From sequence record ON075799: a stretch of DNA of 64,000 nucleotides; one strand, given 5' to 3'. The translations under genes were made by a program, and so were the position numbers. The notes under the pieces were generated by a model. That model saw only the letters and a program-made list of their open reading frames with translations. It did no database searches and was not told the DNA's origin. Below are positions 18 to 25,283 of this stretch, piece after piece. How positions within the stretch are numbered: the first letter of the stretch is position 1; every line of letters begins with the position of its first letter. The stretch is from Escherichia phage vB_EcoM_TH18.

Positions 18-94
18 TGGTGTGACGGACAGGATTCGAACCTGTGACCACCTAGTCTTCAGCAAGGCACTCTACCAACTGAGTTACCGTCACA
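18..94 (-). tRNA. tRNA-Phe (anticodon GAA)
   Basis: Hand-folded cloverleaf on minus strand: 7-bp acceptor, D-stem actc/gagt, anticodon loop CTGAAGA, T-loop GGTTCGAATCC, CCA encoded. Confidence 0.75.
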
Positions 95-98
95 TAAT

Positions 99-175
99 TG
101 GTGGGCGATGAGGGACTCGAACCCCCAAAATTCAGGTTCTAAGCCTGACATGTATACCAATTCCATCAATCGCCC
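99..175 (-). tRNA. tRNA, anticodon UAG (Leu-like decoding) but short variable loop; atypical
   Basis: Minus strand: acceptor gggcgat/atcgccc, anticodon stem tcagg/cctga with loop CTTAGAA, T-arm with TTCGAGT loop, CCA encoded; type-I length (77 nt) despite Leu-type anticodon. Confidence 0.55.
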
Positions 176-189
176 ATCTATATTAACAG

Positions 190-381
190 TTATGGTTTTC
201 CACGATACACAGAAATAGTTTTCCCATTAGCATTGATAACATAAGCGGTCTGATCCTCAGACAAAAACACTTTTTGATCAATGCCGGAAATAGCTATAGA
301 CTTTTGATGAGCACAATACCCAACAATTTTCCCACAAAAAATTTGTTCATCATTTGGAGAGACGACTTTAACTGTTAACAT
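190..381 (-). CDS. hypothetical small protein (63 aa; ORF 190-462 trimmed to internal ATG)
   Basis: Internal ATG at 381 preceded by AGAGGA; the longer ORF would overlap tRNA-Pro. Confidence 0.4.
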   Translation of the reverse strand: MLTVKVVSPNDEQIFCGKIVGYCAHQKSIAISGIDQKVFLSEDQTAYVINANGKTISVYRGKP

Positions 382-423
382 GGTATCCTCTGTACATTTC
401 TGCTTTGATATGTTTATGTTTGT

Positions 424-501
424 TGGTCTGTCCGGTTGGATTTGAACCAACGACCTGGTCATCCCAAGTGACCCGCGCTACCCAAGCTGCGCTACGGACA
501 G
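424..501 (-). tRNA. tRNA-Pro (anticodon UGG)
   Basis: Minus strand: acceptor ctgtccg/cggacag, D-stem gcgc/gcgc, anticodon stem ggtca/tgacc loop CTTGGGA, T-loop TTCAAAT, CCA encoded. Confidence 0.75.
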
Positions 502-585
502 AGAAATGTAGATTTTAATTGTCCCAGAATCTACTAACTGGTATCGCTGGCTAGGTGATATCTGTGACTTGATTAAGTCAAGAAT

Positions 586-677
586 TGGCGGTTCCTGAAG
601 GATTCGAACCTTCGGTGGGGAGATTCATTCCCAACGGCTTAACAGGCCGTCACCATCGACCACTCGGTCAAAGAACC
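586..677 (-). tRNA. tRNA, type II-like (long variable arm), anticodon loop CTGTTAA (GUU?); identity uncertain
   Basis: Minus strand: acceptor ggttctt/aggaacc, anticodon stem acggc/gccgt, extra stem-loop ggga-atgaatc-tccc, T-arm gaagg-TTCGAAT-ccttc, CCA encoded; 92 nt. Confidence 0.5.
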
Positions 678-686
678 TGAATATTT

Positions 687-763
687 TGGTGGATCTGGTT
701 GGGGTCGAACCAACAATCTCTCGATTAAAAGTCGAGTGACTTAAACCATTTGGCTACAAATCC
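687..763 (-). tRNA. tRNA-Lys (anticodon UUU)
   Basis: Minus strand: acceptor ggatttg/cagatcc, anticodon stem ctcga/tcgag loop CTTTTAA, T-arm gttgg-TTCGACC-ccaac, CCA encoded. Confidence 0.7.
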
Positions 764-780
764 GTTAAATTATCTTTAAA

Positions 781-810
781 ATAGCTAATTACTCGCACAT
801 AATTAGCTAT
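781..810. repeat. perfect 10-bp-stem hairpin (atagctaatt / aattagctat) in inter-tRNA spacer
   Basis: Exact inverted repeat with 10-nt loop read directly from sequence. Confidence 0.6.
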
Positions 811-996
811 ACGCAACAACTCTCCAAGGAGAGCACACTAATGATCGATTACGATTATATGACTAAATTTAGACCATCATAAGTGTTTGGCTTACGCCAG
901 TAAAGAGCGGACTGCTCTGGGGTATCGGTAAGATGGTTGCAGCCATCTACCGAAAAATCACACCAAGCAACTAAACAAGCTACATTAAAGATAACT

Positions 997-1085
997 TGGA
1001 GGAGGCTGACAGAATCGAACTGTCACCATATCTCTACAGCGGGACTGGGTTCAAACCAGCTTGTGCACCATGCACCCCAGCCTCC
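997..1085 (-). tRNA. tRNA-Ser (anticodon UGA)
   Basis: Minus strand: acceptor ggaggct/agcctcc, anticodon loop TTTGAAC, long variable arm, T-arm gacag-TTCGATT-ctgtc, CCA encoded; 89 nt. Confidence 0.7.
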
Positions 1086-1156
1086 AAAGATAGCCTCTGC
1101 CGAGGATATACACCCAACAAAGGAGGCGCTCAGGTCAGAAGAAATCTGAGCCTTAA

Positions 1157-1250
1157 TGGAGGAAGATGCCAGACTTGAACTGGCACACCCATTTCTGGGT
1201 TACTATCTCCTTAGCAGGGAGATCCCTTACCAAATTAGGGTTAATCTTCC
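1157..1250 (-). tRNA. tRNA-Ser (anticodon GCU)
   Basis: Minus strand: acceptor ggaagat/atcttcc, anticodon stem tctcc/ggaga loop CTGCTAA, long variable arm, T-arm gccag-TTCAAGT-ctggc, CCA encoded. Confidence 0.7.
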
Positions 1251-1271
1251 AATACCTTAGTAATTAAAAAC

Positions 1272-1361
1272 TGGTGGAGAAGGAGAGAATCGAACTCTCA
1301 AGCCGTTTTACCAGTCAGCACATTTCCAATGTGCTTTCGTCGCCAATCGATTTGCTTCTCC
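1272..1361 (-). tRNA. tRNA-Ser (anticodon GGA)
   Basis: Minus strand: acceptor ggagaag/cttctcc, anticodon stem gcaca/tgtgc loop TTGGAAA, long variable arm, T-arm gagag-TTCGATT-ctctc, CCA encoded. Confidence 0.65.
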
Positions 1362-1370
1362 GTTTTAACT

Positions 1371-1446
1371 TGGCAGGGGATGGTTGATTCGAACAACCGA
1401 TCACGGGGTCAAAGCCCGTTGCATTAGGCCACTATGCTAATCCCCT
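1371..1446 (-). tRNA. tRNA-Gln (anticodon UUG)
   Basis: Minus strand: acceptor aggggat/atcccct, D-stem gcat/atgc, anticodon stem acggg/cccgt loop CTTTGAC, T-loop TTCGAAT, CCA encoded. Confidence 0.7.
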
Positions 1447-1452
1447 TTTGCA

Positions 1453-1527
1453 CGAGAGTGAGGAATAGAACCTCTTAGTCACTGGTTTTGGAGGCCAGCC
1501 TTCACCCAGTGAAGTTACGCTACTCTC
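1453..1527 (-). tRNA. tRNA-Trp (anticodon CCA)
   Basis: Minus strand: anticodon loop CTCCAAA, T-arm with TTCTATT loop, acceptor gagagt/actctc; CCA not encoded. Confidence 0.6.
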
Positions 1528-1535
1528 ATTAAAAA

Positions 1536-2093
1536 CTATTTTCGAAAAGGACTTATGAAAAATGCCAACATCACTCTCTCTCTTGAAAAAGCTCTGTCTT
1601 CAGGAACCACACTCTTCAGTTTCCAACCGACATAAATTCGCCAGTAAAATTGTTTTCCAAACAATCTAAAAGACGGGACAAACGCGAATACACCCCACGC
1701 ATTGTCATTCCACATCAACAAATAGCCTTGTTGGTTATCCTCCACATCAGAGCTTACATGGAGGTTTCCTTTCCACTTTGTCACAGATGTGATTTCACGT
1801 CCAAGTACGTGATAGGAGAAATTGTAGGCTTTATTTCTCCACAACCAAGCAACTCGTTGTAGGTAAACACCAAAACTTCCTATTTTACGGACTTCTTCCC
1901 ATCTCTCTATGTGTCCTCTATCACCGTCTATAGGATTATCATATGTCTCCATCCACCTGAAAATATAAGGCAGATGCCCTGTCTTCTCATTATAGAACGG
2001 AACAACAAAAGGAGCCAGAATAACACAGAGAACCGACATAACTGGGTCAAGAGGTGCTAACAGGATCCACGATAAATATTTTAAGTATCTCAT
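1536..2093 (-). CDS. hypothetical protein (185 aa, aromatic-rich, hydrophobic N-terminus)
   Basis: Long ORF between tRNA sub-clusters; no recognisable motif. Confidence 0.5.
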   Translation of the reverse strand: MRYLKYLSWILLAPLDPVMSVLCVILAPFVVPFYNEKTGHLPYIFRWMETYDNPIDGDRGHIERWEEVRKIGSFGVYLQRVAWLWRNKAYNFSYHVLGREITSVTKWKGNLHVSSDVEDNQQGYLLMWNDNAWGVFAFVPSFRLFGKQFYWRIYVGWKLKSVVPEDRAFSRERVMLAFFISPFRK

Positions 2094-2320
2094 GCAGGAT
2101 CAAGCCTAGATATAATGTACTGGTTTAAATCTGAATATGGGAAGATACTTTCAAAGATAACCTGTTTAAATCTGAAGCCGCACAAACCGAAAAGTACCTT
2201 CTGACACTCACCAAAAGAGCAATCTTTACCAACTTTTATCACAACCGTATCGGCAATCTGCACACTTTCTATCTCTTTAGATTCATGATGCCGTACTATG
2301 ATTACTTTAGAAACCATCAT
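2090..2320 (-). CDS. hypothetical protein (76 aa)
   Basis: ORF whose stop overlaps the start of the downstream gene by 4 bp (translational coupling pattern). Confidence 0.4.
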   Translation of the reverse strand: MMVSKVIIVRHHESKEIESVQIADTVVIKVGKDCSFGECQKVLFGLCGFRFKQVIFESIFPYSDLNQYIISRLDPA

Positions 2321-2445
2321 ACTCGTCCATATTAAAGCCTTCTACTAAAGATAGTAGATGTCTAGGGTTGGACCGCAAACGCAACCCCATGGAATTTGTT
2401 ACGGTCTTCAGTTGACCCAAGCGGATTTCATTGACATCTTTTAAC

Positions 2446-2520
2446 TGGAGCATCCAGAGGGTATCGAACCCTCGACTTCAGCTTGGAAGGCTGTAGTTTT
2501 CCCAATTAAACTATGGATGC
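2446..2520 (-). tRNA. tRNA-Gly (anticodon UCC)
   Basis: Minus strand: acceptor gcatcca/tggatgc, D-stem gttt/aaac, anticodon loop CTTCCAA, T-arm gaggg-TTCGATA-ccctc, CCA encoded. Confidence 0.7.
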
Positions 2521-2525
2521 ATATT

Positions 2526-2601
2526 TGGTGGGAGTGGTAGGCTCTGCCCCTACGTCCTCTCGATTATCGGTCGAGCGATCTACTAACTGATCTACACTCC
2601 C
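2526..2601 (-). tRNA. tRNA-Ile-like (anticodon GAU), atypical T-loop
   Basis: Minus strand: acceptor gggagtg/cactccc, D-stem gatc/gatc, anticodon stem ctcga/tcgag loop CCGATAA, T-stem gtagg/cctac but loop GGCAGAG lacks TTC; CCA encoded. Confidence 0.5.
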
Positions 2602-2665
2602 AAACTGTACTGGCCCAACAACCACGATTGGAGGGTATCGTCACACATCAAAGCCAGTACAGTTT
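2602..2665. repeat. 13-bp-stem hairpin (aaactgtactggc / gccagtacagttt, 38-nt loop) filling the spacer between two tRNAs
   Basis: Exact inverted repeat read from sequence; no T-loop, so not a tRNA. Confidence 0.55.
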
Positions 2666-2669
2666 TAGT

Positions 2670-2759
2670 TGGTGTGCCGTGATAGAGTCGAACTACCCGA
2701 GTCCCTTTCGAGACAGGAGATTTACAGTCTCCCCCGCTACCCCTACGGTCTAACGACAC
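2670..2759 (-). tRNA. tRNA-Tyr (anticodon GUA), type II
   Basis: Minus strand: acceptor gtgtcgt/acggcac (one G-U), anticodon stem ggaga/tctcc loop CTGTAAA, long variable region, T-arm ggtag-TTCGACT-ctatc, CCA encoded; D-arm irregular. Confidence 0.6.
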
Positions 2760-2760
2760 A

Positions 2761-3108
2761 TTAACCTTGTTTGAATTGAACAATATCCGTCGAGAACGGT
2801 TTAGCTGCCTTAATAGGTGCTTTTTCTGAGTTATCTTTTTCGAGTAACTCTTCGTTTTCCTCATCAAAGTAATCAGAAAGCATCTGCTCACCTTTCTCAA
2901 TAACATAACGAGCTATATTTTCTCTGATATTGTCTTTTGTATTCACATTCTTCATCAAATCCCTAAGAACCTGATGAGCTTCAGGAATCATTGCAATCAG
3001 ATTCGTTTTTAAATCTAGGATATTTTTCTCTAACTGAATTGCATTAGATTCCTCTTTCAGAGGACGACCTTTTCCTCTTCTACGTTTTGTAAGCTGCTTA
3101 GTAGCCAT
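2761..3108 (-). CDS. hypothetical protein (115 aa from internal ATG; acidic C-terminal half)
   Basis: ORF 2761-3333 trimmed to the Met at 3108 because the upstream part overlaps tRNA-Cys. Confidence 0.45.
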   Translation of the reverse strand: MATKQLTKRRRGKGRPLKEESNAIQLEKNILDLKTNLIAMIPEAHQVLRDLMKNVNTKDNIRENIARYVIEKGEQMLSDYFDEENEELLEKDNSEKAPIKAAKPFSTDIVQFKQG

Positions 3109-3193
3109 TTTAAAACCCCACTTAATGATATTATCAAATAAAAACATATCTGTCAAGTGGTATTTTAACATATTTACCAAGAAATTGAAAGTT

Positions 3194-3270
3194 TGGAGCA
3201 CGGTGTCGGACTTGAACCGACATATATCTGTTTTGCAGACAGATCCGTAACCAAATTCCAGCAACCGTGC
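3194..3270 (-). tRNA. tRNA-Cys (anticodon GCA)
   Basis: Minus strand: acceptor gcacggt/accgtgc, anticodon stem tctgt/acaga loop CTGCAAA, T-arm with TTCAAGT loop, CCA encoded. Confidence 0.7.
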
Positions 3271-3356
3271 AATAAGTACCCCAGGTAGAGAACCTATAGA
3301 GTGGGTCTTACGAGCCGCGCTGACGATTCTCAAGTTGGGGTTAATCTGGTCGAGGA

Positions 3357-3433
3357 GACAGGATTCGAACCTGTGACCTACGGCTTAGAAGGCCGCTGCT
3401 CTATCCAACTGAGCTACACCCCGAAAATAAGAA
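3357..3433 (-). tRNA. tRNA-Arg (anticodon UCU)
   Basis: Minus strand: canonical D-arm tagctcagttggatagagc, anticodon stem gcggc/gccgt loop CTTCTAA, T-arm acagg-TTCGAAT-cctgt, CCA encoded. Confidence 0.7.
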
Positions 3434-3623
3434 TGCTTTATAGTGTATGGTTACTCAACCTCACTCCAACTTCCACAGTTGGTGCTCTACGAGCATGACT
3501 ACGTTTGAAATCAACGTTGCGCACCGATAGCTTTCTCACGCATTGTATGCCTCATTCCCAACAAATGCTGATCAGACATTTATATCGAATAATATAAGCT
3601 AATACACTATAAAACAAACTTGT

Positions 3624-3720
3624 GGCTGGGTGATGGAATCGAACCACCTATGTATTCAACGGCTTCCCCGTCTATTTTCAGGATTATAAATCCTCGCCCT
3701 TGCCAAAGGGCTTACCCAGC
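3624..3720 (-). tRNA. tRNA-like gene, unusually long (about 97 nt); anticodon loop TTTATAA (UAU?) with about 30-nt insertion before the T-arm
   Basis: Minus strand: acceptor gctgggt/acccagc, D-stem gccc/gggc, 4-bp anticodon stem agga/tcct, extra hairpin acgg-ggaag-ccgt, T-arm ggtgg-TTCGATT-ccatc; CCA not encoded. Confidence 0.4.
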
Positions 3721-3722
3721 AT

Positions 3723-3797
3723 TGGTGCTCGCAGCAGGTTTCGAACCTGCAACCCCCTGCTTACAAGGCAGGTGCTCTACCGTTGAGCTATACGAGC
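3723..3797 (-). tRNA. tRNA-Thr (anticodon UGU)
   Basis: Minus strand: acceptor gctcgta/tgcgagc, D-stem gctc/gagc, anticodon stem cctgc/gcagg loop CTTGTAA, T-arm gcagg-TTCGAAA-cctgc, CCA encoded. Confidence 0.75.
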
Positions 3798-4162
3798 AAT
3801 AAGACATTGCTTCCGATTAACAGCCTTGAGGCTTTACAGACCATATCTTGTGAGCCATAACCTGTGCCAAGGATTTCAGATGATAAACGAAATTTTATCT
3901 TTCAAGAGTCAACTTTCAAGTTTCATCTTTTACATTTAACCATTGACCTTTATTGTATGAACTTTTACTTAGTGGAAACAACAAGGCATCTTCGTGTGCC
4001 TCGCTGCATCTATGTCCTGTATTATCCTCATACATATACGATACATGGTGGGGGATATTTAACCTCCAACCCCCAGGAGGCAAGATGATGTAAACTTCGT
4101 TAATCAAAAGCAATGTTTTAAATTTCAAAACAAAGGAACGATAATGATATTATCAGAGCCTT

Positions 4163-4810
4163 TTAGAGAGAGTGCTCAATCTCAATTTCTGTCTTAGCGT
4201 TTGACTCAGACAACGCAAAATCAACGTTAGACAAGAAATCTTCAATCTCTTCTTCAAGAGAACGAATCTTAGAAGCCAGTTCAAGAGGATCCACAACCGA
4301 TGGTGTGTTCATCATTCGAATAGGAGCTTCCACAGTCTTAATCTGCTCTGCATCTGGCGCTTTATCACGTTGGATATATGGCGCTCTTGCATTTTCAAGT
4401 TTATCTTCCAGAGATTTTTCTTCTTTTGCCAGAAGAAGCTGTGCAGAAGCACGCTGTGCACAAAGTTTGTTTAACAACTCTTGTTTAAAGCAAATCGTCC
4501 GTTTGCGTTCGATTGCCTCAGCAACTGTCATAGACACATTACCAATTTTGACAATTGTCTCAGCATTAGACTTAACAATTTTTGCTTTCAGTTCATCACG
4601 CACTGCCAAGAGGTCTTGCAGACTTTGATAGTCGTTGATCGCAGATTTCTTAAAATCATCAACAGAGCCGATATAACCCGGAATCTTACAATTATTCTCA
4701 GTTCCTTTTGCAATCTTAATACAATCAAGATTGTAGATACGCTTATTGATCTTATCTTCAATTTTAGAGATAGAAGCAAGTGCACGAGTTACGGAAATCT
4801 TAGTAGACAT
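4163..4810 (-). CDS. hypothetical protein (215 aa, predicted coiled-coil, K/E-rich)
   Basis: Long ORF; composition only. Confidence 0.55.
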   Translation of the reverse strand: MSTKISVTRALASISKIEDKINKRIYNLDCIKIAKGTENNCKIPGYIGSVDDFKKSAINDYQSLQDLLAVRDELKAKIVKSNAETIVKIGNVSMTVAEAIERKRTICFKQELLNKLCAQRASAQLLLAKEEKSLEDKLENARAPYIQRDKAPDAEQIKTVEAPIRMMNTPSVVDPLELASKIRSLEEEIEDFLSNVDFALSESNAKTEIEIEHSL

Positions 4811-4883
4811 GCGATCTCTCCTATGTAAATCAGCTTTGATAAAGTAACTATCCAGAAAAACAAAAACTATGTCAAGAAAAATT

Positions 4884-5075
4884 TTAATCTTTTACAGCAT
4901 CTTTTATAGAATCACAAAGATCTTGAACAACATCAGATGTCGGTGACAAAATCATCTCGTCGGCTGCTGCTATAGCATCTGATGCTAAATCAACAAACGG
5001 AGTTGTTACCGCAGAAGTCACTTCAACAGCCGTTATTGTTACTTCGCTTGCAATCTTAAGCAAAGATCCTATCAT
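4884..5075 (-). CDS. hypothetical protein (63 aa)
   Basis: Small ORF downstream of the tRNA-Met gene. Confidence 0.3.
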   Translation of the reverse strand: MIGSLLKIASEVTITAVEVTSAVTTPFVDLASDAIAAADEMILSPTSDVVQDLCDSIKDAVKD

Positions 5076-5151
5076 AATCTCAACCCTCCTGAATATCCGT
5101 GATTCCCTTTATTTAACGACGCTGGCTCACGGTGGCACTCTCGTCAATAAA

Positions 5152-5475
5152 CTATTTTTTAGTTTTCTTACCGTTTTCTACAGAAATGCTTGTTTTCTGT
5201 TTCGCTTCTCGTTCGCGCTTTGTTTTCCCAGTGCGAATACGATATGAAGCAGAAATAACTTCACCACCAATGACACGAGACACAGATTCGTAATACATTT
5301 CAGTATTACCGTCTTCATCTTTGCGTTTTTTCAGAACTGCTACAGTTTGCGTTTTACCACCAAGGCGCACATCGTGCGGTGCAGAATGTGTCTGCGTGGA
5401 TTTTGATCCAAACTGAAAAGGTTGCTTTATCGCCTCGATAGCTGACACCTTTTTAGCAGACTGTTTCTTAGCCAT
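5152..5475 (-). CDS. hypothetical basic protein (107 aa from internal ATG, Lys-rich)
   Basis: Internal ATG at 5475 preceded by GGAGG; Lys-rich termini. Confidence 0.45.
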   Translation of the reverse strand: MAKKQSAKKVSAIEAIKQPFQFGSKSTQTHSAPHDVRLGGKTQTVAVLKKRKDEDGNTEMYYESVSRVIGGEVISASYRIRTGKTKREREAKQKTSISVENGKKTKK

Positions 5476-5527
5476 TAAGTTTTCTCCTCCGAAAACAATA
5501 AACATAGTTTATTTCGTGTGCCACATT

Positions 5528-5604
5528 TGGTGGCCCCTGCTGGACTTGAACCAGCGACCAAGCGATTATGAGTCACCTGCTCTATCCAACTGAGCTAAGG
5601 GGCC
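5528..5604 (-). tRNA. tRNA-Met (anticodon CAU; elongator-type or Ile2-type)
   Basis: Minus strand: acceptor ggcccct/aggggcc (G1-C72 paired), canonical D-arm, anticodon loop CTCATAA, T-arm gctgg-TTCAAGT-ccagc, CCA encoded. Confidence 0.7.
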
Positions 5605-9102: not shown

Positions 9103-9500
9103 GATTTATCTCCTCTAGCACGATTGACGATAATATAATTTCTTGGTTTCACGTTACCATCAGAATCCTGAAATCCTGATCTGACACGCCTGACATAACC
9201 AAAGCTCTCCATCCGAGACAGAAATTCAGACACTTTGGTTCGTGAGTTTTCGTTCCACCCCAACAGACCACACAAGGATTGCTGTGACGGAAAGAATACC
9301 AGTTCCCCACCCAAGGGGTTCCGACTCTTGAAATACTCGTATCTCCACAACAAGCGTATCAGTCTTTGCAGATCGCTTGGTGATAACCGTTCATCAAAAA
9401 CCCACTCTGTCGGCACAGCGATGTACGACCCAGCTTTCGGATTTACATGGAAACCCCCAACATTCGATTTCAAGGCAAACTCCGGTGTGTAATTCAACAC
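9099..9500 (-). CDS. hypothetical protein (133 aa), first gene of the leftward operon
   Basis: ORF whose stop overlaps the prs start by 4 bp; sits immediately left of the AT-rich control region. Confidence 0.5.
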   Translation of the reverse strand: MLNYTPEFALKSNVGGFHVNPKAGSYIAVPTEWVFDERLSPSDLQRLIRLLWRYEYFKSRNPLGGELVFFPSQQSLCGLLGWNENSRTKVSEFLSRMESFGYVRRVRSGFQDSDGNVKPRNYIIVNRARGDKS

Positions 9501-9540
9501 CGAGAATGCTACTCATAACACCACACAATGTCAACCCCTC

Positions 9541-9859
9541 CCATATGTCCCCATTTCAGGGACATTATGATCTAATATAATATATATTATATAATATAAT
9601 TTAATATAATACTACGTATTATATATATTATAATATATATATATAATTTATATAAAATACACTAAGTCTTGAAGAATGTCAAGACTTGATTTTAAATATT
9701 TTTGTTGATATGATTCGATTGAGTCGAATCGTATGGTTCGATGATTTCGAATCATAGAGTTCATGTTGTTTTGCCTGAAATCGTGAGTCGATGAGACTCT
9801 TCAGGCAATACGTGAGTGTGTAAGATGCTCACTGCGCTGATAGCTTGTGATCATCTAAC
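9541..9859. promoter_or_regulatory. divergent intergenic control region: about 80-bp near-pure A/T tract (9585-9660) plus short palindromes and TCGA-containing repeats
   Basis: Composition and repeats read directly; lies between the leftward (tRNA/NAD) and rightward (small-gene) transcription units. Confidence 0.5.
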
Positions 9860-9978
9860 CCTCATGAGCCATTCTGAGATAAACCCACATCAACAAACCC
9901 CACAGGTTTGTCTCTGTGTGTTAATCTCAATCATGGATTCGGGTTGTCACAAGTCACTATGTGACTCTGTGTGGGGAT
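9860..9978. repeat. 119-bp inverted repeat, copy A (identical to the reverse complement of 63882-64000)
   Basis: Base-by-base comparison of the reverse complement of the window end with 9860-9978: 119/119 identical. Confidence 0.9.
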
Positions 9979-10094
9979 TTCGAATGTGTACCGGAGCATG
10001 GCGCACAGGACTGGTTCATCTGTCCGTCTCAACTGGGGCGCGGCGGGGGTTAAGGTTTAGTTTTACGTTTTGTGTGGGTGTGGAGGAGAGTTTT

Positions 10095-10373
10095 ATGGCC
10101 TACGATGAAAATTCTATCCGGGTGCTGTCACCTGATGATATCAAACAACGATTTGACTGGGTACGCATCGGGGATTTGGTTCACGAATATAACTTACCTG
10201 TGGATTGGGTCAGACGTGGCTTTGAAGCGTGCTGGAGGTTAAACATCGAGCCTGATTATTTTATCAACAAGTACATCCTCAAGCAGGATGTTGAACCTGT
10301 ACCTGATTTCGAGGTTGTTTTTAAAGAGATTGTTATGGAGTCTCGATTCAAGGATCAGGTATGCTCCAGGTAG
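10095..10373 (+). CDS. hypothetical protein (92 aa)
   Basis: ATG at 10095 preceded by GGAGGAGAG; the upstream part of ORF 9816-10373 is the repeated non-coding sequence. Confidence 0.45.
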   Translation: MAYDENSIRVLSPDDIKQRFDWVRIGDLVHEYNLPVDWVRRGFEACWRLNIEPDYFINKYILKQDVEPVPDFEVVFKEIVMESRFKDQVCSR

Positions 10374-22202: not shown

Positions 22203-22394
22203 ATGGATGTATCACAAGTTAGAAAGGTATTAGCAGCGTTACGCTATCACAATCATAGCAAGGTGAAGAATGATCCTGATTATGTTGATTCAAGTCTGGA
22301 GGAAGACACCTTGCAAGCTATAAGCCATATGCAGGAATTGCTTAAGCGTATGACAGAGAAGAACAGATCTGACTATATAGGTGACGAGATCTAA
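22203..22394 (+). CDS. hypothetical protein (63 aa)
   Basis: Ribosome-binding site AAAGGAGTAAT. Confidence 0.5.
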   Translation: MDVSQVRKVLAALRYHNHSKVKNDPDYVDSSLEEDTLQAISHMQELLKRMTEKNRSDYIGDEI

Positions 22395-22490
22395 TCTTTA
22401 CAATCTCGCCTATTGACACCGGATCACGCTTACATTATTATCTATCTTGTAGGGCAAGCAATACCGCAAGCCCACAAAGAGGACAATAAA

Positions 22491-22859
22491 ATGAGCAAAT
22501 CAGCAATTAAAGCACTTGAAAAAGCGCAAAAAGTGATCGCTACTTCCACCACTGGCGCAAGTATTAATCTGATCGCTTACTTGGAAGATGAAACTATCCG
22601 TAAAAATTGGCGTAATACTGATTTGCTGGCTTGCTTATTGATTAATAGTGTTGCTAATGCTTTCCAGTGTGAAACAGCCGAGAGCCTGGAAGAAAACTTG
22701 TTTGACAATATGGATCAAGCCATTGAAACCTATATCCAATCAAATCTGGATAGCTGGAACAGTAAAACATGGCCCGACAGCTTACGCGATACAACTGACC
22801 AACTGATCCGCCTTGCGGTGATGGTTGAACGCGATAACGTTTACAGCCGCACAAAGTAA
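22491..22859 (+). CDS. hypothetical protein (122 aa from internal ATG)
   Basis: Promoter TTGACA-17-TATTAT at 22415-22443; ribosome-binding site AAGAGGA before the ATG at 22491. Confidence 0.55.
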   Translation: MSKSAIKALEKAQKVIATSTTGASINLIAYLEDETIRKNWRNTDLLACLLINSVANAFQCETAESLEENLFDNMDQAIETYIQSNLDSWNSKTWPDSLRDTTDQLIRLAVMVERDNVYSRTK

Positions 22860-22867
22860 GATAGTAC

Positions 22868-22897
22868 AAAGGGCGCTTAATGCGCCCTTTCTTTTTG
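22868..22897 (+). terminator. rho-independent terminator (aagggcgc-ttaa-tgcgccctt + T-run); end of the plus-strand module
   Basis: Hairpin followed by TCTTTTTG. Confidence 0.7.
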
Positions 22898-22929
22898 CCC
22901 TAACAAACATGATAAGTTTTATCTATCAA

Positions 22930-23230
22930 AACACCACACAGAAAGAAAGTGAATAAAACGCGGTATCGAGCTAAACGAGGGTGGGCAATACAACGGCAAG
23001 GCTAAACAATTAAGGCTGTTATAACGCGATTTAGGCCGCTTAAAATCGATCCCCACCACAAACAACACCCACAAAATGACCAAAACGACACAACATGACT
23101 TAAATGATAACCATTCCCAACAACATAAGCATTTTTATGCAATTTGAGTGAATATCTATTTAAATGATAATGACTCTCAACAACAAACTAACACGACCGA
23201 AGCGATTCAATCGCCTACCACAAAATTAAT
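22930..23230. repeat. C/A-rich, G-poor tract with repeated CACCACA(C)A motifs and a 28-bp imperfect direct repeat (about 23098 and 23158)
   Basis: Motifs read from sequence; reverse-complement orientation of the TGTGTGG motifs at 24044-25283. Confidence 0.5.
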
Positions 23231-23284
23231 CACTTGTAAAGAGTAATTTGAAAAAAGCTGCGTAGGTGGCGCGACCGTAGGGAG

Positions 23285-23361
23285 CGACACAATAACGCAG
23301 TAGTAGCCCCTCACCCCTCCTTCCAGTCGCCCCCGGTATCGGGGCAGCGTTATTGTGTCGC
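23285..23361. repeat. 15-bp perfect inverted repeat (gcgacacaataacgc / gcgttattgtgtcgc) around a 47-nt C-rich loop
   Basis: Exact reverse-complement match read from the sequence. Confidence 0.8.
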
Positions 23362-23373
23362 TAAGCGACAACG

Positions 23374-23437
23374 CGTTAACAATTTTGCAAGATTTTATTA
23401 ATACTTTAACTGTTATAATTTTATTGCAAAATTGTTA
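23374..23437. repeat. 16-bp perfect inverted repeat (gttaacaattttgcaa / ttgcaaaattgttaac), 32-bp spacer
   Basis: Exact reverse-complement match read from the sequence. Confidence 0.8.
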
Positions 23438-23444
23438 ACCTACT

Positions 23445-23555
23445 GCGTTATTGTGTCACGTAGTGATTAGTTACATATGTAACTAACAGCTATCACTGCA
23501 AAATTGTGTCACGTAGTGATTAGCTGAGAATCAGCTAACCCGTAAAACGGGCTAA
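23445..23555. repeat. direct repeat ATTGTGTCACGTAGTGATTAG (two copies), each followed by a palindrome (ttagttacatatgtaactaa; agctgagaatcagct), then cccgtaaaacggg
   Basis: Exact repeats and palindromes read from the sequence. Confidence 0.75.
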
Positions 23556-23799
23556 ATTGTGTCCGGTACGGATGAGATAATCTCTCATTAATCCCCGATT
23601 ATTACGCAGTAAATCACCATGAATCACCTGTTTTTAACCCTGTTATTGTGTTCTTGCCCAGGGATAACCGCTTACTATGCGGTTAAATGCTGTATAGTCG
23701 CTACGCGATTAAGCGCGATGCGCTTAACCTGCAAAGCAGGCTTCTAAGTGCCTGAAATGCCAGATCAATTTGGTCACTGCGTGATCATGATTGCGACAA

Positions 23800-23995
23800 T
23801 AATTTGCTTATGATTTGCTATTTATTTGTTTGTAGTTGGTTATAGTTGTTATGGTTTGTTTGTTAATAGTTGCTATAATTTTGCTTTATTTGATTTTATT
23901 TGTTAAACACCCTTTTATCATTCCTCTTACATTTTCGCAATATTTATTTTTGTTATCGTTTTCCCTCATTTCATTTCGTTATTGAAAACAAGAAT
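23800..23995. repeat. AT-rich tract of short phased T/G-rich repeats (GTTAT, TTTGTT)
   Basis: Composition; possible DNA-unwinding or bending element. Confidence 0.4.
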
Positions 23996-24043
23996 TATTA
24001 TCAATGCGCCTTAACAGGCTGACAGGTCTGTTAGTGGGCTAGC

Positions 24044-25283
24044 TCTCTGTGTGGTTATGTGTCGGCTGTTATTGTTAGCTTGCTTATTGTTGTGTGGTGT
24101 ATGTACCAGTTAACTAGTACATTGTGTGGTGCGCATAACGTGTATTATGTTAAATCGCTAAGCCCACAAATCAGGTGACTTGTCAATAACAATAAGTGCT
24201 GTGTGCGGTAGGTCTGACCTATCAGTGTGCCCCTTTGTTGTGTGGTGCTTCCAATGGCTGGTCTGCCTGCTGTCTGTGCTGCGTCAGGAATCGAGGGGAC
24301 TCGATCGCAATAGCTGTAAGATATTTTGTAAAGATTCGTAGTTTTTCTTGACACCCACAATCGTCTGCCTAACCCTTCAGAGATAAATACTTCAGAGATT
24401 TATCTGGGCTTTTTACCCTTCAGGTATAGAGACGTGTGTTTTATCCCTCACTTCTGAGATAAAGCCGTAGATATTTTCACTCTTCACATCATGTGCAAGT
24501 TAATACATGTATGTCTTTACAGACGGGGTGGGGTAACAATCAGGAAGTGGTCTGGCAGTGATAACGCACTGGATAAAAGCTCTGTGTGGATTGTCGATGA
24601 TATTTGTGTGTGTGGGAAATGCTGATAGGCAAGAGATAAGACACTTGTCTCCGGCAGGGGTGGGGTGTGGAAAAGAAATGGGCCTGTCCGACCCATTGTG
24701 TTACAGAGATGAAACGCCTATCTCACCATTGACCAGGTAAGCCAATATCAAGGCCAAATTCGTGACATTCATCCCAGTCAAGACTTTGATTCCAGTTTGT
24801 AACTGTTTGCTCTGTGTGGTGGGTGTGTGATGCTCTCTGTGACTGCTTGGGCATCTTTTTTGTCTGGGATTTCCCGAAGAGAGGTGTGTTGTCATTAAGT
24901 CTTCCGGCAGCCTTTTCACCCTTTTTGACTTGTCTCCCACGGGCATTCCACTGCTCCAGTGTCCTGTAACACATAAAATGATTCTCCTGTAATATCTGGT
25001 GTGGGAATGATAGTGGAGAATGTCAGTCGTGTCAAGTAGGTTGCTCAGAGGCGCTATTATAAAAATTTTTTGGTGGCTTTCTGGGGCTTGTTGTGGGACT
25101 GTAAACAAGCTGTGGAGCCAGATGTGACGGGGCTTTCAGCCATGTTGTGTGTTGATAGCAAATAAGGATAAAATAATCAATATAAATGCGGATAAATGTT
25201 GTTTTATTGCGGTTGTGTGACTAGTGTGTCAATTCTTGATAGGCTATGTCTTGTACATATTTTGTACAATTGTGTGGTGTGTG
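24044..25283. repeat. dispersed same-orientation TGTGTGG(T)(G) motif, at least 7 copies
   Basis: Copies at about 24044, 24087, 24121, 24235, 24580, 24810 and 25268; no convincing ORFs in the region. Confidence 0.6.

What the first reader, a model, noticed from the sequence alone, without database searches (positions are those of the whole stretch)
23285..23560. Cluster of large perfect palindromes and direct repeats at the centre of the convergence zone
Within 280 bp there is a 15-bp inverted repeat around a C-rich 47-nt loop (23285-23361), a 16-bp inverted repeat with 32-bp spacer (23374-23437), two copies of ATTGTGTCACGTAGTGATTAG each followed by a palindrome (20-bp ttagttacatatgtaactaa; agctgagaatcagct), and cccgtaaaacggg. 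ATTGTGTC-like sequences recur about five times. This density of exact dyad symmetry is unusual and suggests a multi-site protein-binding locus or a cruciform-prone or structured-RNA region.
Basis: seen in the sequence. Interest (0 to 1): 0.65.

Follow-up and report, generated by a model that had tools for sequence, protein, structure and literature searches.

The report
Conserved hairpin nest beside phage genome end
The palindrome cluster is a real, strongly conserved, non-coding DNA structure that lies just inside the right physical end of an rV5-like (Vequintavirinae) phage genome. It most likely helps the phage recognise or process its genome ends, and the neighbouring terminal repeat carries a copy of the host's dif (XerC/XerD) recombination site.

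Summary
The window is an Avunavirus (Vequintavirinae myovirus). The cluster lies in a 1.77-kb non-coding gap between two convergent terminators.

Anatomy: an invariant block (23266-23290) is followed by an 18-bp long-range stem (23286-23303 with 23440-23457). The stem encloses an 82% A+T 16-bp hairpin. After it come ~53-nt hairpin modules that each start with ATTGTGTC.

Constraint on the stems is strong:
- In four close relatives, 1 of 118 stem columns varies, against 41 of 150 other columns.
- In other genera the arms have entirely different sequences but stay perfectly Watson-Crick. In 11 Mydovirus-group sequences, 20 cells changed on both sides and 1 changed on one side.
- The modules differ in number and position between relatives.

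By homology to phage DP, whose 514-bp terminal repeats are annotated, the direct terminal repeat (DTR) here is predicted at 23906-24365. The cluster therefore sits 330-620 bp inside the right genome end.

Best reading (about 0.4): a DNA-level fold-back signal for terminase recognition or terminal-repeat duplication. Rivals are a replication origin, structured RNA, a protein-site array and selfish modules. No function has been tested.

Side finding: 24128-24155, inside the predicted repeat, matches both arms of E. coli dif exactly. The site is conserved across Vequintavirinae. I found no report of it in the library.

The parts
22868..22890 (+). Intrinsic terminator that ends the + strand operon. 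It marks the left edge of the 1.77-kb non-coding junction region.
   Evidence: 9-bp stem with 6 G-C pairs, followed by CTTTTTG
22900..23250 (+). A+C-rich flank (A 42%, C 22%). It contains a 26-nt direct repeat carrying AATGATAA, at 23100-23125 and 23160-23185.
   Evidence: An A+C-rich flank to the left of the block is seen in all 7 lineages compared. About 90 nt here are 72% identical to Phapecoctavirus junction regions.
23266..23290 (+). Invariant block GTGGCGCGACCGTAGGGAGCGACAC. Its core, GGCGCGA-S-CGTAG-S'-GAGCGAC, is identical across genera. The two S positions are C..G in some lineages and G..C in others, which is consistent with a 2-bp mini-hairpin closed by a GTA loop.
23283..23303 (+). 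L arm, AGCGACACAATAACGCAGTAG. It pairs with R1 (16 bp) or with R2 (18 bp).
   Evidence: repeats I1 and I3; the minimum-energy fold uses L with R2
23304..23346 (+). C-rich spacer with a small hairpin, CCCCG-GTAT-CGGGG (23331-23344). The sequence and length of the spacer vary among close relatives.
   Evidence: The indels do not preserve a reading frame, so the 54-aa - strand ORF at 23207-23371 is not a gene.
23347..23369 (+). R1 arm (23347-23362), overlapping the hairpin GTCGC-TAA-GCGAC (23357-23369). R1 carries a mismatch in two metagenomic relatives.
23375..23439 (+). Perfect 16-bp hairpin, 82% A+T, with a 33-nt loop. The loop holds an extended -10-like TGTTATAAT (23411-23419) that is not conserved in relatives. 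In Av-05 the loop carries a 53-nt module insertion.
23440..23457 (+). R2 arm, CTACTGCGTTATTGTGTC. This is the conserved partner of the L arm.
23450..23486 (+). Module 1: ATTGTGTC, then the small hairpin TCAC-GTA-GTGA, then the 20-bp palindrome TTAGTTACATATGTAACTAA.
   Evidence: Av-05 has TCCG-GTA-CGGA in the small hairpin, a compensatory change.
23503..23551 (+). Module 2: ATTGTGTC, TCAC-GTA-GTGA, TTAGCTGA-GAA-TCAGCTAA, then CCCG-TAAAA-CGGG. The same three-hairpin module, with covarying stems, is a 52-nt insertion found only in Proteus phage Mydo among the Mydovirus group.
23556..23588 (+). Module 3: ATTGTGTC, TCCG-GTA-CGGA, then ATGAGA-TAATC-TCTCAT.
23642..23745 (+). A degenerate module (GTTATTGTGTT followed by TAACCGC...GCGGTTA), then the module GTCGCTACGCGATTAAGCGCGATGCGCTTAACCTGCAAAGCAGGCTTCT (23697-23745). 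In Av-05 that second module sits inside the loop of the A+T-rich hairpin instead.
23790..23905 (+). T+G-rich low-complexity stretch (T 56%, C 5%) with TTTGTT/TAGTTG repeats. It runs up to the predicted left boundary of the terminal repeat.
23906..24365 (.). Predicted direct terminal repeat (DTR), 460 bp. The boundaries are inferred by homology, not measured.
   Evidence: Phage DP has annotated 514-bp terminal repeats at both ends. KPP-1 PhageTerm results give the same repeat. The boundary motifs GTTA|AACAC and ...CGTC|T map to window 23905|23906 and 24365|24366. Repeats of 458-459 bp are reported in Vequintavirus.
24128..24155 (+). dif-like XerC/XerD core site, GGTGCGCATAA-CGTGTA-TTATGTTAAAT. 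It lies inside the predicted terminal repeat.
   Evidence: a match in 5415 of 5426 E. coli genomes, with a median of one place per genome; both 11-bp arms are identical to E. coli dif. The site is present in 13 other Vequintavirinae sequences examined and in both DTR copies of phage DP.
24372..24466 (+). Three ACCCTTCAGAGATAAATAC-like direct repeats, just inside the left genome end.
24677..24697 (-). Intrinsic terminator that ends the - strand operon. It marks the right edge of the non-coding junction region.

Best explanation
The cluster is a cis-acting DNA element of the genome-end (concatemer-junction) region of a Vequintavirinae phage.

Shown:
- It lies in the only large non-coding gap at the convergence of two operons.
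- It starts with a block that is invariant across genera.
- Directly after the block comes a long-range stem that encloses hairpins and is followed by more of them.
- The stems are held by purifying and strictly compensatory selection.
- In related phages with determined ends, the same block-plus-stem lies about 400-430 bp inside the right terminal repeat.

Inferred:
- In this genome the terminal repeat is 23906-24365, so the cluster sits 330-620 bp inside the right end.
- The invariant block is a sequence-specific recognition site for a conserved phage protein, most plausibly the terminase complex, by analogy with pacB of T7.
- The arms are 136-213 nt apart, so the nest probably folds only when the region is single-stranded, for example during nicking and strand-displacement synthesis across the repeat.
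- The fold would then serve to position or prime the duplication of the single repeat copy present at each concatemer junction. This is analogous to the hairpin intermediate described for T7 concatemer processing.
For: Identity and context:
- The window is 100% identical to Escherichia phage 18-1-2 and 83-94% identical to Av-05, both Avunavirus.
- The gap runs between terminators at 22868-22890 (+) and 24697-24677 (-).

Termini in relatives:
- Phage DP has annotated, identical 514-bp repeats at both record ends. The block lies 430 bp to the left of the right copy.
- KPP-1 has the same repeat by coverage and PhageTerm, classed as T7-type packaging (PMC9862379).
- The KP12 record starts exactly at this repeat.
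- The WPEC4 (Phapecoctavirus) record carries a 328-bp repeat at both ends. A CGTAGCGAGC motif plus a 14-bp long-range stem lies about 400 bp to its left.
- Boundary motifs map the repeat to window 23906-24365.

Constraint:
- Stems vary at 1 of 118 columns and the block at 0 of 20, against 41 of 150 other columns, in four Avunavirus relatives (Fisher p = 7e-11).
- In 11 Mydovirus-group sequences, 99.4% of cells are paired. Seven pairs (20 cells) changed on both sides and 1 cell on one side. None of 500 shuffles reached this, and slid controls gave 0-1.
- The arms differ completely between genera but stay complementary: GACACAATAACGCAGTAG, GACACTATAAAACGAG, GACCAAATAGCAAGAATG and GACCAATAGAAAAAGGG.
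- The single-stranded DNA fold has z = -9.2.

Precedent:
- The T7 packaging signal consists of PacB, recognised by the small terminase, and PacC, which is cleaved (PMC9860248).
- A hairpin containing the terminal repeat is found during T7 infection (PMC4281155; Chung, Nardone and Hinkle 1990, PMID 2266564).
Against: - No experiment links the element to packaging.
- The termini of this particular genome were not measured. They are inferred from about 60% identical homologues.
- The block lies 400-640 bp from the repeat boundary rather than at it.
- No terminase binding data exist for this family.
- Module number and position vary between close relatives. Most of the finding's own interval (23450-23590) may therefore be dispensable decoration around the conserved core of block, L/R stem and A+T-rich hairpin.
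- Exact copies of the 21-nt block also occur in intergenic DNA of unrelated bacteria. This is unexplained. It may be chance or low complexity (a tandem GCGAGCG), or it may point to a host-factor site rather than a terminase site.
Confidence: 0.4

Rival explanations
1. Replication origin. The ATTGTGTC repeats would be iterons for a phage initiator, or T7-type primase start sites (GTGTC). The 82% A+T hairpin at 23375-23439 would be the unwinding element. The hairpins would help strand opening or priming.
For: - Three ATTGTGTC copies are spaced 53, 53 bp apart, about five helical turns, so they fall on the same face of the helix.
- An adjacent 65-bp stretch is 82% A+T.
- The keto skew switches from A+C-rich to neutral or G+T-rich exactly at the block in all 7 lineages.
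- The motif orientation flips there.
- rV5 encodes a podovirus-like primase/helicase (PMC3606486).
- From my own memory, GTGTC is a T7 primase recognition sequence.
Against: - Genes converge on the region, so forks leaving it would run head-on into transcription.
- GC skew goes from + to - here, which is terminus-like. The - to + switch lies at about 10 kb, next to a 100-bp pure A/T tract at 9560-9660.
- There are no DnaA boxes or IHF sites in the finding.
- No initiator gene is adjacent; all neighbours are PHROGs of unknown function.
- The ATTGTGTC copy number changes between close relatives, and other genera have different arm sequences.
Confidence: 0.2
2. One or more structured non-coding RNAs. 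A transcript crossing 23260-23760, perhaps started at the TGTTATAAT in the hairpin loop, would fold into the hairpins and act on host or phage targets.
For: - An invariant sequence block next to covarying stems is the classic signature of a structured RNA.
- There is an extended -10-like TGTTATAAT at 23411-23419.
- One T.G wobble occurs on the + strand in a relative's palindrome.
Against: - No Rfam family matches at E <= 5, apart from chance microRNA-type hits.
- The candidate -10 is changed in two relatives and lies in a variable loop.
- No conserved promoter lies upstream of the block in any lineage, and no terminator follows.
- A strong terminator at 22868-22890 blocks read-through.
- Stem changes are 20 double against 1 single, with as many A.C as G.U exceptions. 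This fits a constraint on both strands, that is, on DNA.
- Perfect 16-21-bp stems are unusual for RNA.
Confidence: 0.15
3. An array of double-stranded DNA binding sites for a dimeric or multimeric protein (a regulator, an injection-stop or end-protection factor, or Xer accessory factors). On this view the palindromes reflect protein symmetry rather than folding.
For: - The 8-mer is repeated in both orientations and GCGAC/GTCGC pentamers recur.
- The element is near the dif-like site and on its XerC side, with the same orientation in all lineages.
- From my own memory, phage T5 has a repeat- and palindrome-rich 'injection stop' region near its terminal repeat.
Against: - Hairpin stems have unrelated sequences in different modules and lineages, so only complementarity is conserved.
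- Four arm variants in near-identical Mydoviruses are each matched perfectly in the partner arm 160 nt away.
- The cer and psi accessory regions are about 180 bp long and adjacent to the core (from memory), not 590-910 bp away. The left-end repeat copy would also lack them.
Confidence: 0.12
4. Selfish or neutral hairpin modules. Short mobile palindromic cassettes would have accumulated in a tolerant non-coding region and have no function for the phage.
For: - Modules are gained, lost and relocated between close relatives: 53 nt inside the A+T-rich hairpin loop in Av-05, an extra module in Av-05 and in the metagenomic relatives, and a 52-nt insertion only in Mydo.
- Insertions land in hairpin loops.
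Against: - The core (block, L/R stem, A+T-rich hairpin) is invariant or compensated across genera, and across two subfamilies in architecture.
- This reading could hold for modules 1-3 but not for the whole element.
- No transposase or homing endonuclease is adjacent.
Confidence: 0.1

Closest known systems
T7/T3 concatemer junction: pacB/pacC packaging signal and the hairpin intermediate of terminal-repeat duplication
   Same: - Short exact direct terminal repeats, T7-type by PhageTerm in relatives.
- A cis element in the unique DNA just inside the right end.
- An inverted repeat able to fold back next to the repeat.
- A possible rightward promoter about 490 bp upstream of the repeat. From memory, the T7 phiOR promoter lies about 550 bp upstream.
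   Different: - There is no sequence similarity.
- This is a myovirus of about 121 kb without a phage RNA polymerase.
- The element is a nest of covarying hairpins headed by a 21-nt invariant block, 400-640 bp from the repeat.
- No functional data exist for it.
Single-strand initiation signals (M13 and G4 complementary-strand origins, phiX174 primosome assembly site, plasmid sso elements)
   Same: Non-coding stretches of 150-300 nt in which several hairpins are conserved as structure, together with a short conserved sequence. They act only when single-stranded.
   Different: - Those belong to single-stranded or rolling-circle replicons.
- Here the host is a large double-stranded DTR phage, and the element sits at the genome end.
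- No match to CS-6 or RSB-type motifs was tested beyond inspection by eye.
Iteron-type origins (lambda ori, P4 ori/crr, plasmid oriV)
   Same: Phased direct repeats next to an A+T-rich segment.
   Different: - No adjacent initiator gene and no DnaA or IHF sites.
- The repeats are part of covarying stems.
- Gene orientation and skew are terminus-like.
PeSL (promoter-early stem-loop) mobile cassettes of T4-type phages
   Same: Cassettes of about 50 nt containing stem-loops that are duplicated and shuffled between close relatives.
   Different: - PeSLs carry a sigma-70 promoter and flank small ORFs in hyperplastic regions.
- These modules have no convincing promoter, flank no ORFs, and are confined to the genome-end region.
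P1 Cre-lox cyclisation, and plasmid and chromosome Xer sites (dif, cer, psi). This comparison applies to the side finding at 24128-24155.
   Same: A site-specific recombination site lies inside the terminal redundancy, so the two end copies are direct repeats that could recombine to circularise the incoming genome. The core has both dif arms intact.
   Different: - The phage appears to rely on the host XerCD rather than on its own recombinase.
- The central region differs from dif at 2 of 6 positions.
- No cer or psi-type accessory region was recognised.
- Recombination has not been tested.

Membership tests
T7-type packaging signal at a DTR concatemer junction | The genome has short, exact direct terminal repeats with fixed ends. 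| tested here: inconclusive
   Shown for relatives: DP has annotated 514-bp repeats at both ends, KPP-1 by PhageTerm, WPEC4 with 328 bp, and Vequintavirus with 458-459 bp. For this genome the repeat is only predicted by homology, at 23906-24365.
T7-type packaging signal at a DTR concatemer junction | A cis element lies in unique DNA adjacent to the repeat and is conserved among relatives. | tested here: met
   The block plus long-range stem lies 400-640 bp to the left of the repeat in Avunavirus, Mydovirus, Septuagintavirus-like and PVP-SE1-like phages and two uncultivated lineages. A related CGTAGCGAGC-plus-stem lies in the same place in Phapecoctavirus.
T7-type packaging signal at a DTR concatemer junction | The element is bound by terminase and is required for packaging. 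| not testable with these tools
   This needs binding assays and a plasmid-transduction or deletion assay.
Iteron-type replication origin | Three or more phased direct repeats plus an adjacent A+T-rich unwinding element. | tested here: met
   Spacing of 53, 53 bp. 23375-23439 is 82% A+T.
Iteron-type replication origin | An adjacent initiator gene and/or host-factor boxes (DnaA, IHF). | tested here: not met
   There are no DnaA or IHF consensus sites in 23260-23760. The flanking ORFs match only PHROGs of unknown function.
Iteron-type replication origin | Origin-type polarity: genes and skew diverge from the site. | tested here: not met
   Genes converge on the site, and GC skew goes from + to - across it.
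Known RNA families (Rfam 15), including CRISPR repeats, Y RNA, ribozymes and riboswitches | A covariance-model match. | tested here: not met
   Only three chance-level hits to eukaryotic microRNA and lncRNA models at E 0.014-2.9, all far below gathering scores.
CRISPR-like array or RNA anti-CRISPR repeat units | Near-identical repeats separated by unique, non-palindromic spacers. | tested here: not met
   Unit identity falls to 62-90%. Differences between repeats are compensatory stem changes, and the 'spacers' are themselves palindromes.
Intrinsic transcription terminators | A G+C-rich hairpin followed by a T run. | tested here: not met
   The scan finds terminators only at 22868-22890 (+), 24697-24677 (-), 23214-23193 (-) and 22527-22512 (-). 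None lies at the cluster's hairpins.
Protelomerase target (telRL) | One large palindrome without a spacer at the genome end. | tested here: not met
   The largest spacer-free palindrome is 20 bp. Relatives have direct terminal repeats rather than hairpin ends. I did not search for a protelomerase gene.
Xer core recombination site (dif/cer/psi family). This applies to the side finding at 24128-24155. | An 11-bp XerC arm, a 6-8-bp central region and an 11-bp XerD arm. | tested here: met
   GGTGCGCATAA-CGTGTA-TTATGTTAAAT against the E. coli chromosomal GGTGCGCATAA-TGTATA-TTATGTTAAAT. The XerD arm is perfect in all 14 Vequintavirinae sequences examined.
Xer accessory region (cer/psi type), considered for the finding itself | About 180 bp directly abutting the XerC arm and bound by PepA with ArgR or ArcA (from memory). 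| tested here: not met
   The cluster lies 570-840 bp from the core and outside the repeat, so the left-end copy would lack it. Protein binding cannot be tested here.

The most novel reading that the evidence does not exclude
The invariant 21-nt block and its covarying hairpin nest form a previously undescribed class of genome-end element, shared by rV5-like and phi92-like phages. It would act in single-stranded form to direct or prime duplication of the terminal repeat at concatemer junctions. It would work alongside a host-type dif site inside the repeat that lets host XerCD circularise the incoming linear genome. On this view these strictly lytic myoviruses organise their ends like a miniature chromosome terminus: convergent genes, a skew switch and a dif site.
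Probability: 0.2. Interest if true: 0.8.

Novelty: new variant of a known kind. Interest (0 to 1): 0.6.

Why it matters
How phages with short direct terminal repeats recognise their concatemer junctions and regenerate the second repeat copy is understood, and only partly, for T7 and T3. Nothing is known for the large rV5/PVP-SE1/phi92 group, which is widely used in phage therapy and biocontrol.

This work yields three things:
- a precisely delimited, conserved and mutable candidate signal: the block, the long-range stem and the hairpins;
- predicted end coordinates for this genome;
- an unexpected host-type dif site inside the repeat.

Each is directly testable with packaging assays, termini mapping and xerC, xerD or ftsK hosts. 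They also matter for engineering these phages, for example for transducing particles, genome rebooting, and avoiding assembly breaks at this locus.

Tried and rejected
- **Rfam, both strands of 22300-25200:** nothing credible.
- **Sigma-70 promoter and terminator scan:** at shuffle level. The only attractive promoter, TGTTATAAT in the hairpin loop, is not conserved in two relatives.
- **A small gene on the - strand (54-aa ORF 23207-23371, with an AAGGAGG motif):** rejected, because the indels against Av-05 do not preserve the reading frame.
- **Anti-Shine-Dalgarno mimic in the C-rich loop:** the loop is variable.
- **CRISPR-like or anti-CRISPR repeat reading:** rejected; see the membership tests.
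- **DnaA, IHF, KOPS and Chi motifs:** none, or too few to interpret.
- **Tus/Ter resemblance of the 20-bp palindrome:** 9 contiguous matches to the Ter core as I remember it, but 2 mismatches in the invariant GTTGTAAC, and the palindrome is absent from other genera. I treat it as chance.
- **The 'FtsK' annotation of a small UPEC06 gene near the junction:** no Pfam support.
- **Host origin of the block:** no match in 5426 E. coli genomes.
- **Exact block matches in GTDB genomes (19 places in diverse phyla):** neighbouring genes are unrelated housekeeping genes and no Rfam family covers the matches. Several lie in coding DNA. The common variant is a tandem GCGAGCG, so chance plus low complexity may explain most of them. 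A few sit in hairpin contexts that resemble the phage topology. This is left unexplained.
- **Module search in IMG/VR:** found only Av-05.
- **Literature:** I found no description of this element or of a Xer site in these phages.
Full report
**What the window is.** The 700 bp around the finding are 100% identical to three partial records of Escherichia phages 18-1-2, 19-1-2 and 24-2-1. They are 83-94% identical to Escherichia phage Av-05. All are Avunavirus, subfamily Vequintavirinae: rV5/PVP-SE1-like lytic myoviruses of about 121 kb. No feature is annotated over the region in any of these records.

**The observation.**
- The two perfect 16-bp inverted repeats are 23283-23298 / 23347-23362 and 23375-23390 / 23424-23439. 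They are the longest perfect inverted repeats with a loop of 60 nt or less in the 64 kb.
- ATTGTGTC occurs five times within 278 bp, out of seven in the window.
- As single-stranded DNA, 23262-23580 folds to -70.4 kcal/mol against -34.2 +/- 3.9 for shuffles, z = -9.2.
- The cluster lies in a 1.77-kb gap without credible genes. The gap is bounded by the terminator of the + strand operon (22868-22890) and that of the - strand operon (24697-24677).

**Anatomy.** From left to right:
- an A+C-rich flank with two AATGATAA-containing direct repeats (22900-23250);
- a block, GTGGCGCGACCGTAGGGAGCGACAC (23266-23290);
- an L arm (23283-23303);
- a variable C-rich spacer with a small hairpin;
- an R1 arm (23347-23362);
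- the hairpin GTCGC-TAA-GCGAC;
- an 82% A+T hairpin with 16-bp arms (23375-23439);
- an R2 arm (23440-23457);
- three modules of about 53 nt, each made of ATTGTGTC, a 4-bp stem with a 3-nt loop, GAT(T/G)AG, and one or two larger hairpins (23450-23590);
- a degenerate module and a further three-hairpin module (23642-23745);
- a T+G-rich low-complexity stretch (23790-23905).

The motif 'GT, 4-bp stem, 3-nt loop, T[TG]A[GA]' occurs four times on the + strand, all in this region, and once elsewhere on the - strand.

**Conservation in close relatives.** I aligned the window with Av-05 and two metagenomic Avunavirus-like contigs.
- Stems vary at 1 of 118 columns.
- The block varies at 0 of 20 columns.
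- The remaining ungapped columns vary at 41 of 150 (Fisher p = 7e-11).
- Loops take substitutions and indels, and the C-rich spacer indels do not preserve a reading frame.
- The small hairpin of module 1 is TCAC-GTA-GTGA here and TCCG-GTA-CGGA in Av-05, a change on both sides.
- Modules are gained, lost and moved. Av-05 and the metagenomic relatives have an extra module. In Av-05 the module found at window 23697-23745 sits inside the loop of the A+T-rich hairpin.

**Conservation in other genera.** A 32-40-nt match to the block turned up in 40 or more Klebsiella, Proteus, Raoultella and Escherichia Vequintavirinae. Pattern scans added a PVP-SE1-sized genome and two uncultivated lineages of 136 kb and 146 kb.
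- In all of them the core GGCGCGA-S-CGTAG-S'-GAGCGAC is identical.
- It is followed directly by an arm whose perfect complement lies 65-260 nt downstream.
- The arm sequences differ completely between lineages: GACACAATAACACGGGAG, GACACTATAAAACGAG, GACCAAATAGCAAGAATG and GACCAATAGAAAAAGGG.
- Within near-identical Mydoviruses there are four arm variants (GGGAG, GAGAG, TAGGG, GAGGG). Each is matched exactly in the partner arm 160 nt away.

I then tested the consensus structure on an 11-sequence alignment.
- 99.4% of cells are paired.
- Seven pairs (20 cells) changed on both sides, and one cell changed on one side.
- No shuffle out of 500 reached these values.
- Sliding the partner columns gave 0-1.

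The two S positions of the block are C..G or G..C in the phage lineages. That is consistent with a 2-bp mini-hairpin closed by a GTA loop.

The three-hairpin module of window 23508-23554 recurs as a 52-nt insertion in Proteus phage Mydo alone among the Mydovirus group. There its stems covary and it sits in the loop of another hairpin.

A Phapecoctavirus of a different subfamily (Stephanstirmvirinae) has the same layout: an A+C-rich flank, AATGATAA motifs, and CGTAGCGAGC followed by a 14-bp long-range stem.

**The context: the genome end.** Vequintavirinae have short direct terminal repeats.
- KPP-1 has 514 bp by coverage and PhageTerm, classed as T7-type (PMC9862379).
- EdH4 and HdK5 have 458 bp (PMC6563267).
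- Gotham has 459 bp (PMC7471380).

The KPP-1 repeat lies about 490 bp to the right of my block hit. I searched with that repeat.
- Phage DP carries it as an annotated repeat_region at both record ends, 1-514 and 145135-145648. The two copies are identical.
- The KP12 record starts exactly at it.
- In DP the block lies 430 bp to the left of the right copy.
- The WPEC4 (Phapecoctavirus) record has identical first and last 328 bp. That places its repeat about 400 bp to the right of the CGTAGCGAGC motif.

Aligning the DP junction to the window maps the left boundary GTTA|AACAC to 23905|23906. It maps the right boundary ...CGTC|T to 24365|24366. This predicts a 460-bp repeat, and the left-boundary motif is also similar in Phapecoctavirus (ATGTTG|AGCAC). 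The finding therefore lies 330-620 bp inside the right physical end, in the only non-coding DNA available for end-recognition signals. This placement is an inference from homologues that are about 60% identical. It is not a measurement on this phage.

**DNA or RNA.**
- Rfam gives nothing.
- No promoter is conserved upstream of the block, and no terminator follows.
- The one good -10-like element (TGTTATAAT, 23411-23419) lies in a variable loop and is altered in two relatives.
- Stem evolution is almost purely double Watson-Crick. Exceptions are as often A.C as G.U, which fits a constraint acting on both strands.
- The arms are 136-213 nt apart. Extrusion from relaxed duplex is unlikely, so the nest probably forms when the region is single-stranded.
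- Lineage-specific covariation over 18-21 bp argues against simple double-stranded protein sites.

**Most likely mechanism (confidence about 0.4).**
- The block would be a sequence-specific recognition site for a conserved phage protein, most plausibly terminase. The analogy is PacB of T7, which the small terminase recognises (PMC9860248).
- The fold-back nest would act during processing of the concatemer junction. There the single repeat copy has to be duplicated. A hairpin containing the terminal repeat is a known T7 intermediate (PMC4281155; Chung, Nardone and Hinkle 1990, PMID 2266564).
- Shown: anatomy, conservation, covariation, and position relative to the repeat in relatives.
- Inferred: the repeat coordinates here, the protein partner, and the single-stranded mode of action.

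**Rivals.**
- A replication origin (0.2). For it: phased repeats, an A+T-rich segment, and a keto-skew switch at the block in all seven lineages. Against it: genes converge on the site, GC skew goes from + to - (terminus-like), there are no DnaA or IHF sites, and no initiator gene is nearby. A better origin-like spot is the 100-bp pure A/T tract at 9560-9660 in the divergent gap.
- A structured RNA (0.15).
- A double-stranded protein-site array (0.12).
- Selfish modules (0.1). This last reading could be true for modules 1-3 but not for the conserved core.

**Side finding.** One of the conserved islands inside the predicted repeat, 24128-24155, reads GGTGCGCATAA-CGTGTA-TTATGTTAAAT.
- Both 11-bp arms equal the E. 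coli chromosomal site GGTGCGCATAA-TGTATA-TTATGTTAAAT.
- That chromosomal sequence occurs in 5415 of 5426 E. coli genomes, a median of once per genome, mid-chromosome in the records listed. It is the sequence I know as dif.
- In all 14 Vequintavirinae sequences examined, the XerD arm is perfect and the XerC arm has 0-3 mismatches. This includes both repeat copies of phage DP.
- The orientation relative to the block is always the same, and the site lies 590-910 nt from it.
- It is absent from the Phapecoctavirus repeat.
- Two direct copies at the ends of the virion DNA could let host XerCD circularise the incoming genome, as Cre-lox does for P1, or resolve dimers. This is a hypothesis.
- I found no report of it in the library.

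**Unexplained.** The exact 21-nt block also occurs at 19 places in genomes of unrelated bacterial phyla. Most are intergenic, some lie in hairpin contexts, and the neighbours are unrelated housekeeping genes. No Rfam family covers them. My rough expectation from base composition is 2-6 hits. The common variant is a tandem GCGAGCG, so low complexity may explain most of them. I could not settle this.

**Novelty and score.** The element is real and conserved, and I found no description of it. Its kind, a cis-acting genome-end signal of a terminal-repeat phage, is known. Its form is new: an invariant block heading a covarying nest of hairpins with mobile modules, paired with a host-type dif site in the repeat. 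I rate it a new variant of a known kind, with interest 0.6.

Noticed in passing
window 24128-24155: A dif-like XerC/XerD core site, GGTGCGCATAA-CGTGTA-TTATGTTAAAT. Both arms are identical to E. coli dif. It lies inside the predicted terminal repeat and is conserved in all Vequintavirinae lineages examined, including both annotated repeat copies of phage DP. It is absent from Phapecoctavirus. It may allow Xer-mediated circularisation of the incoming genome or dimer resolution. I found no report of it.
   Followed up: partly
window 23906-24365: Predicted 460-bp direct terminal repeat, that is, the physical genome ends. The prediction comes from conserved boundary motifs GTTA|AACAC and CGTC|T shared with phage DP and KPP-1, whose ends are determined.
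   Followed up: partly
window 23268-23288; loci L063-L081: The exact 21-nt block GGCGCGA[CG]CGTAG[CG]GAGCGAC also occurs at 19 places in genomes of unrelated bacterial phyla, including 6 copies in one Acidobacteriota MAG. Most are intergenic, and some sit in hairpin contexts that resemble the phage arrangement. Neighbouring genes are unrelated and there is no Rfam match. It may be chance or low complexity (a tandem GCGAGCG), or a widespread recognition motif.
   Followed up: partly
window 9560-9660 (gap 9500-10095): About 100 bp of pure A/T with several 11-12-bp perfect palindromes. It lies in the divergent intergenic gap where GC skew flips from - to +. It is a better candidate for an unwinding element, an origin, or a divergent promoter region.
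   Followed up: no
window 23100-23125 and 23160-23185: A 26-nt direct repeat, TTAAATGATAA...CAACAACA, spaced 60 nt apart in the A+C-rich flank. AAATGATAA/TTATCATTT motifs recur in the junction regions of Mydovirus and Phapecoctavirus, and this stretch is about 72% identical to Phapecoctavirus records.
   Followed up: partly
window 24090, 24122, 24238; region 23350-24700: TTGTGTGGTG occurs three times inside the predicted repeat, once abutting the XerC arm. TTGTGT is about ten-fold enriched and lies only on the + strand to the right of 23350 and on the - strand to the left of 23300, so the motif polarity flips at the finding.
   Followed up: no
window 24372-24466: Three ACCCTTCAGAGATAAATAC-like direct repeats immediately to the right of the predicted repeat, just inside the left genome end. 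GATATTTT(G) motifs recur at the corresponding place in other genera.
   Followed up: no
window 23697-23745; L001 (Av-05) inside the A+T-rich hairpin loop; L005 (Mydo) 2550-2601: Multi-hairpin modules of about 50 nt behave as mobile or shuffled cassettes. The same module sits at different positions in close relatives, and one module is shared between Avunavirus and a single Mydovirus. Insertions land in hairpin loops.
   Followed up: partly
window 18-5604: A cluster of 15 tRNA genes, all on the - strand.
   Followed up: no
L003 (UPEC06) 1410-1679: An 89-aa CDS annotated 'DNA translocase FtsK' about 1 kb upstream of the block has no Pfam FtsK-gamma match or any other match. The annotation looks unsupported.
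   Followed up: yes
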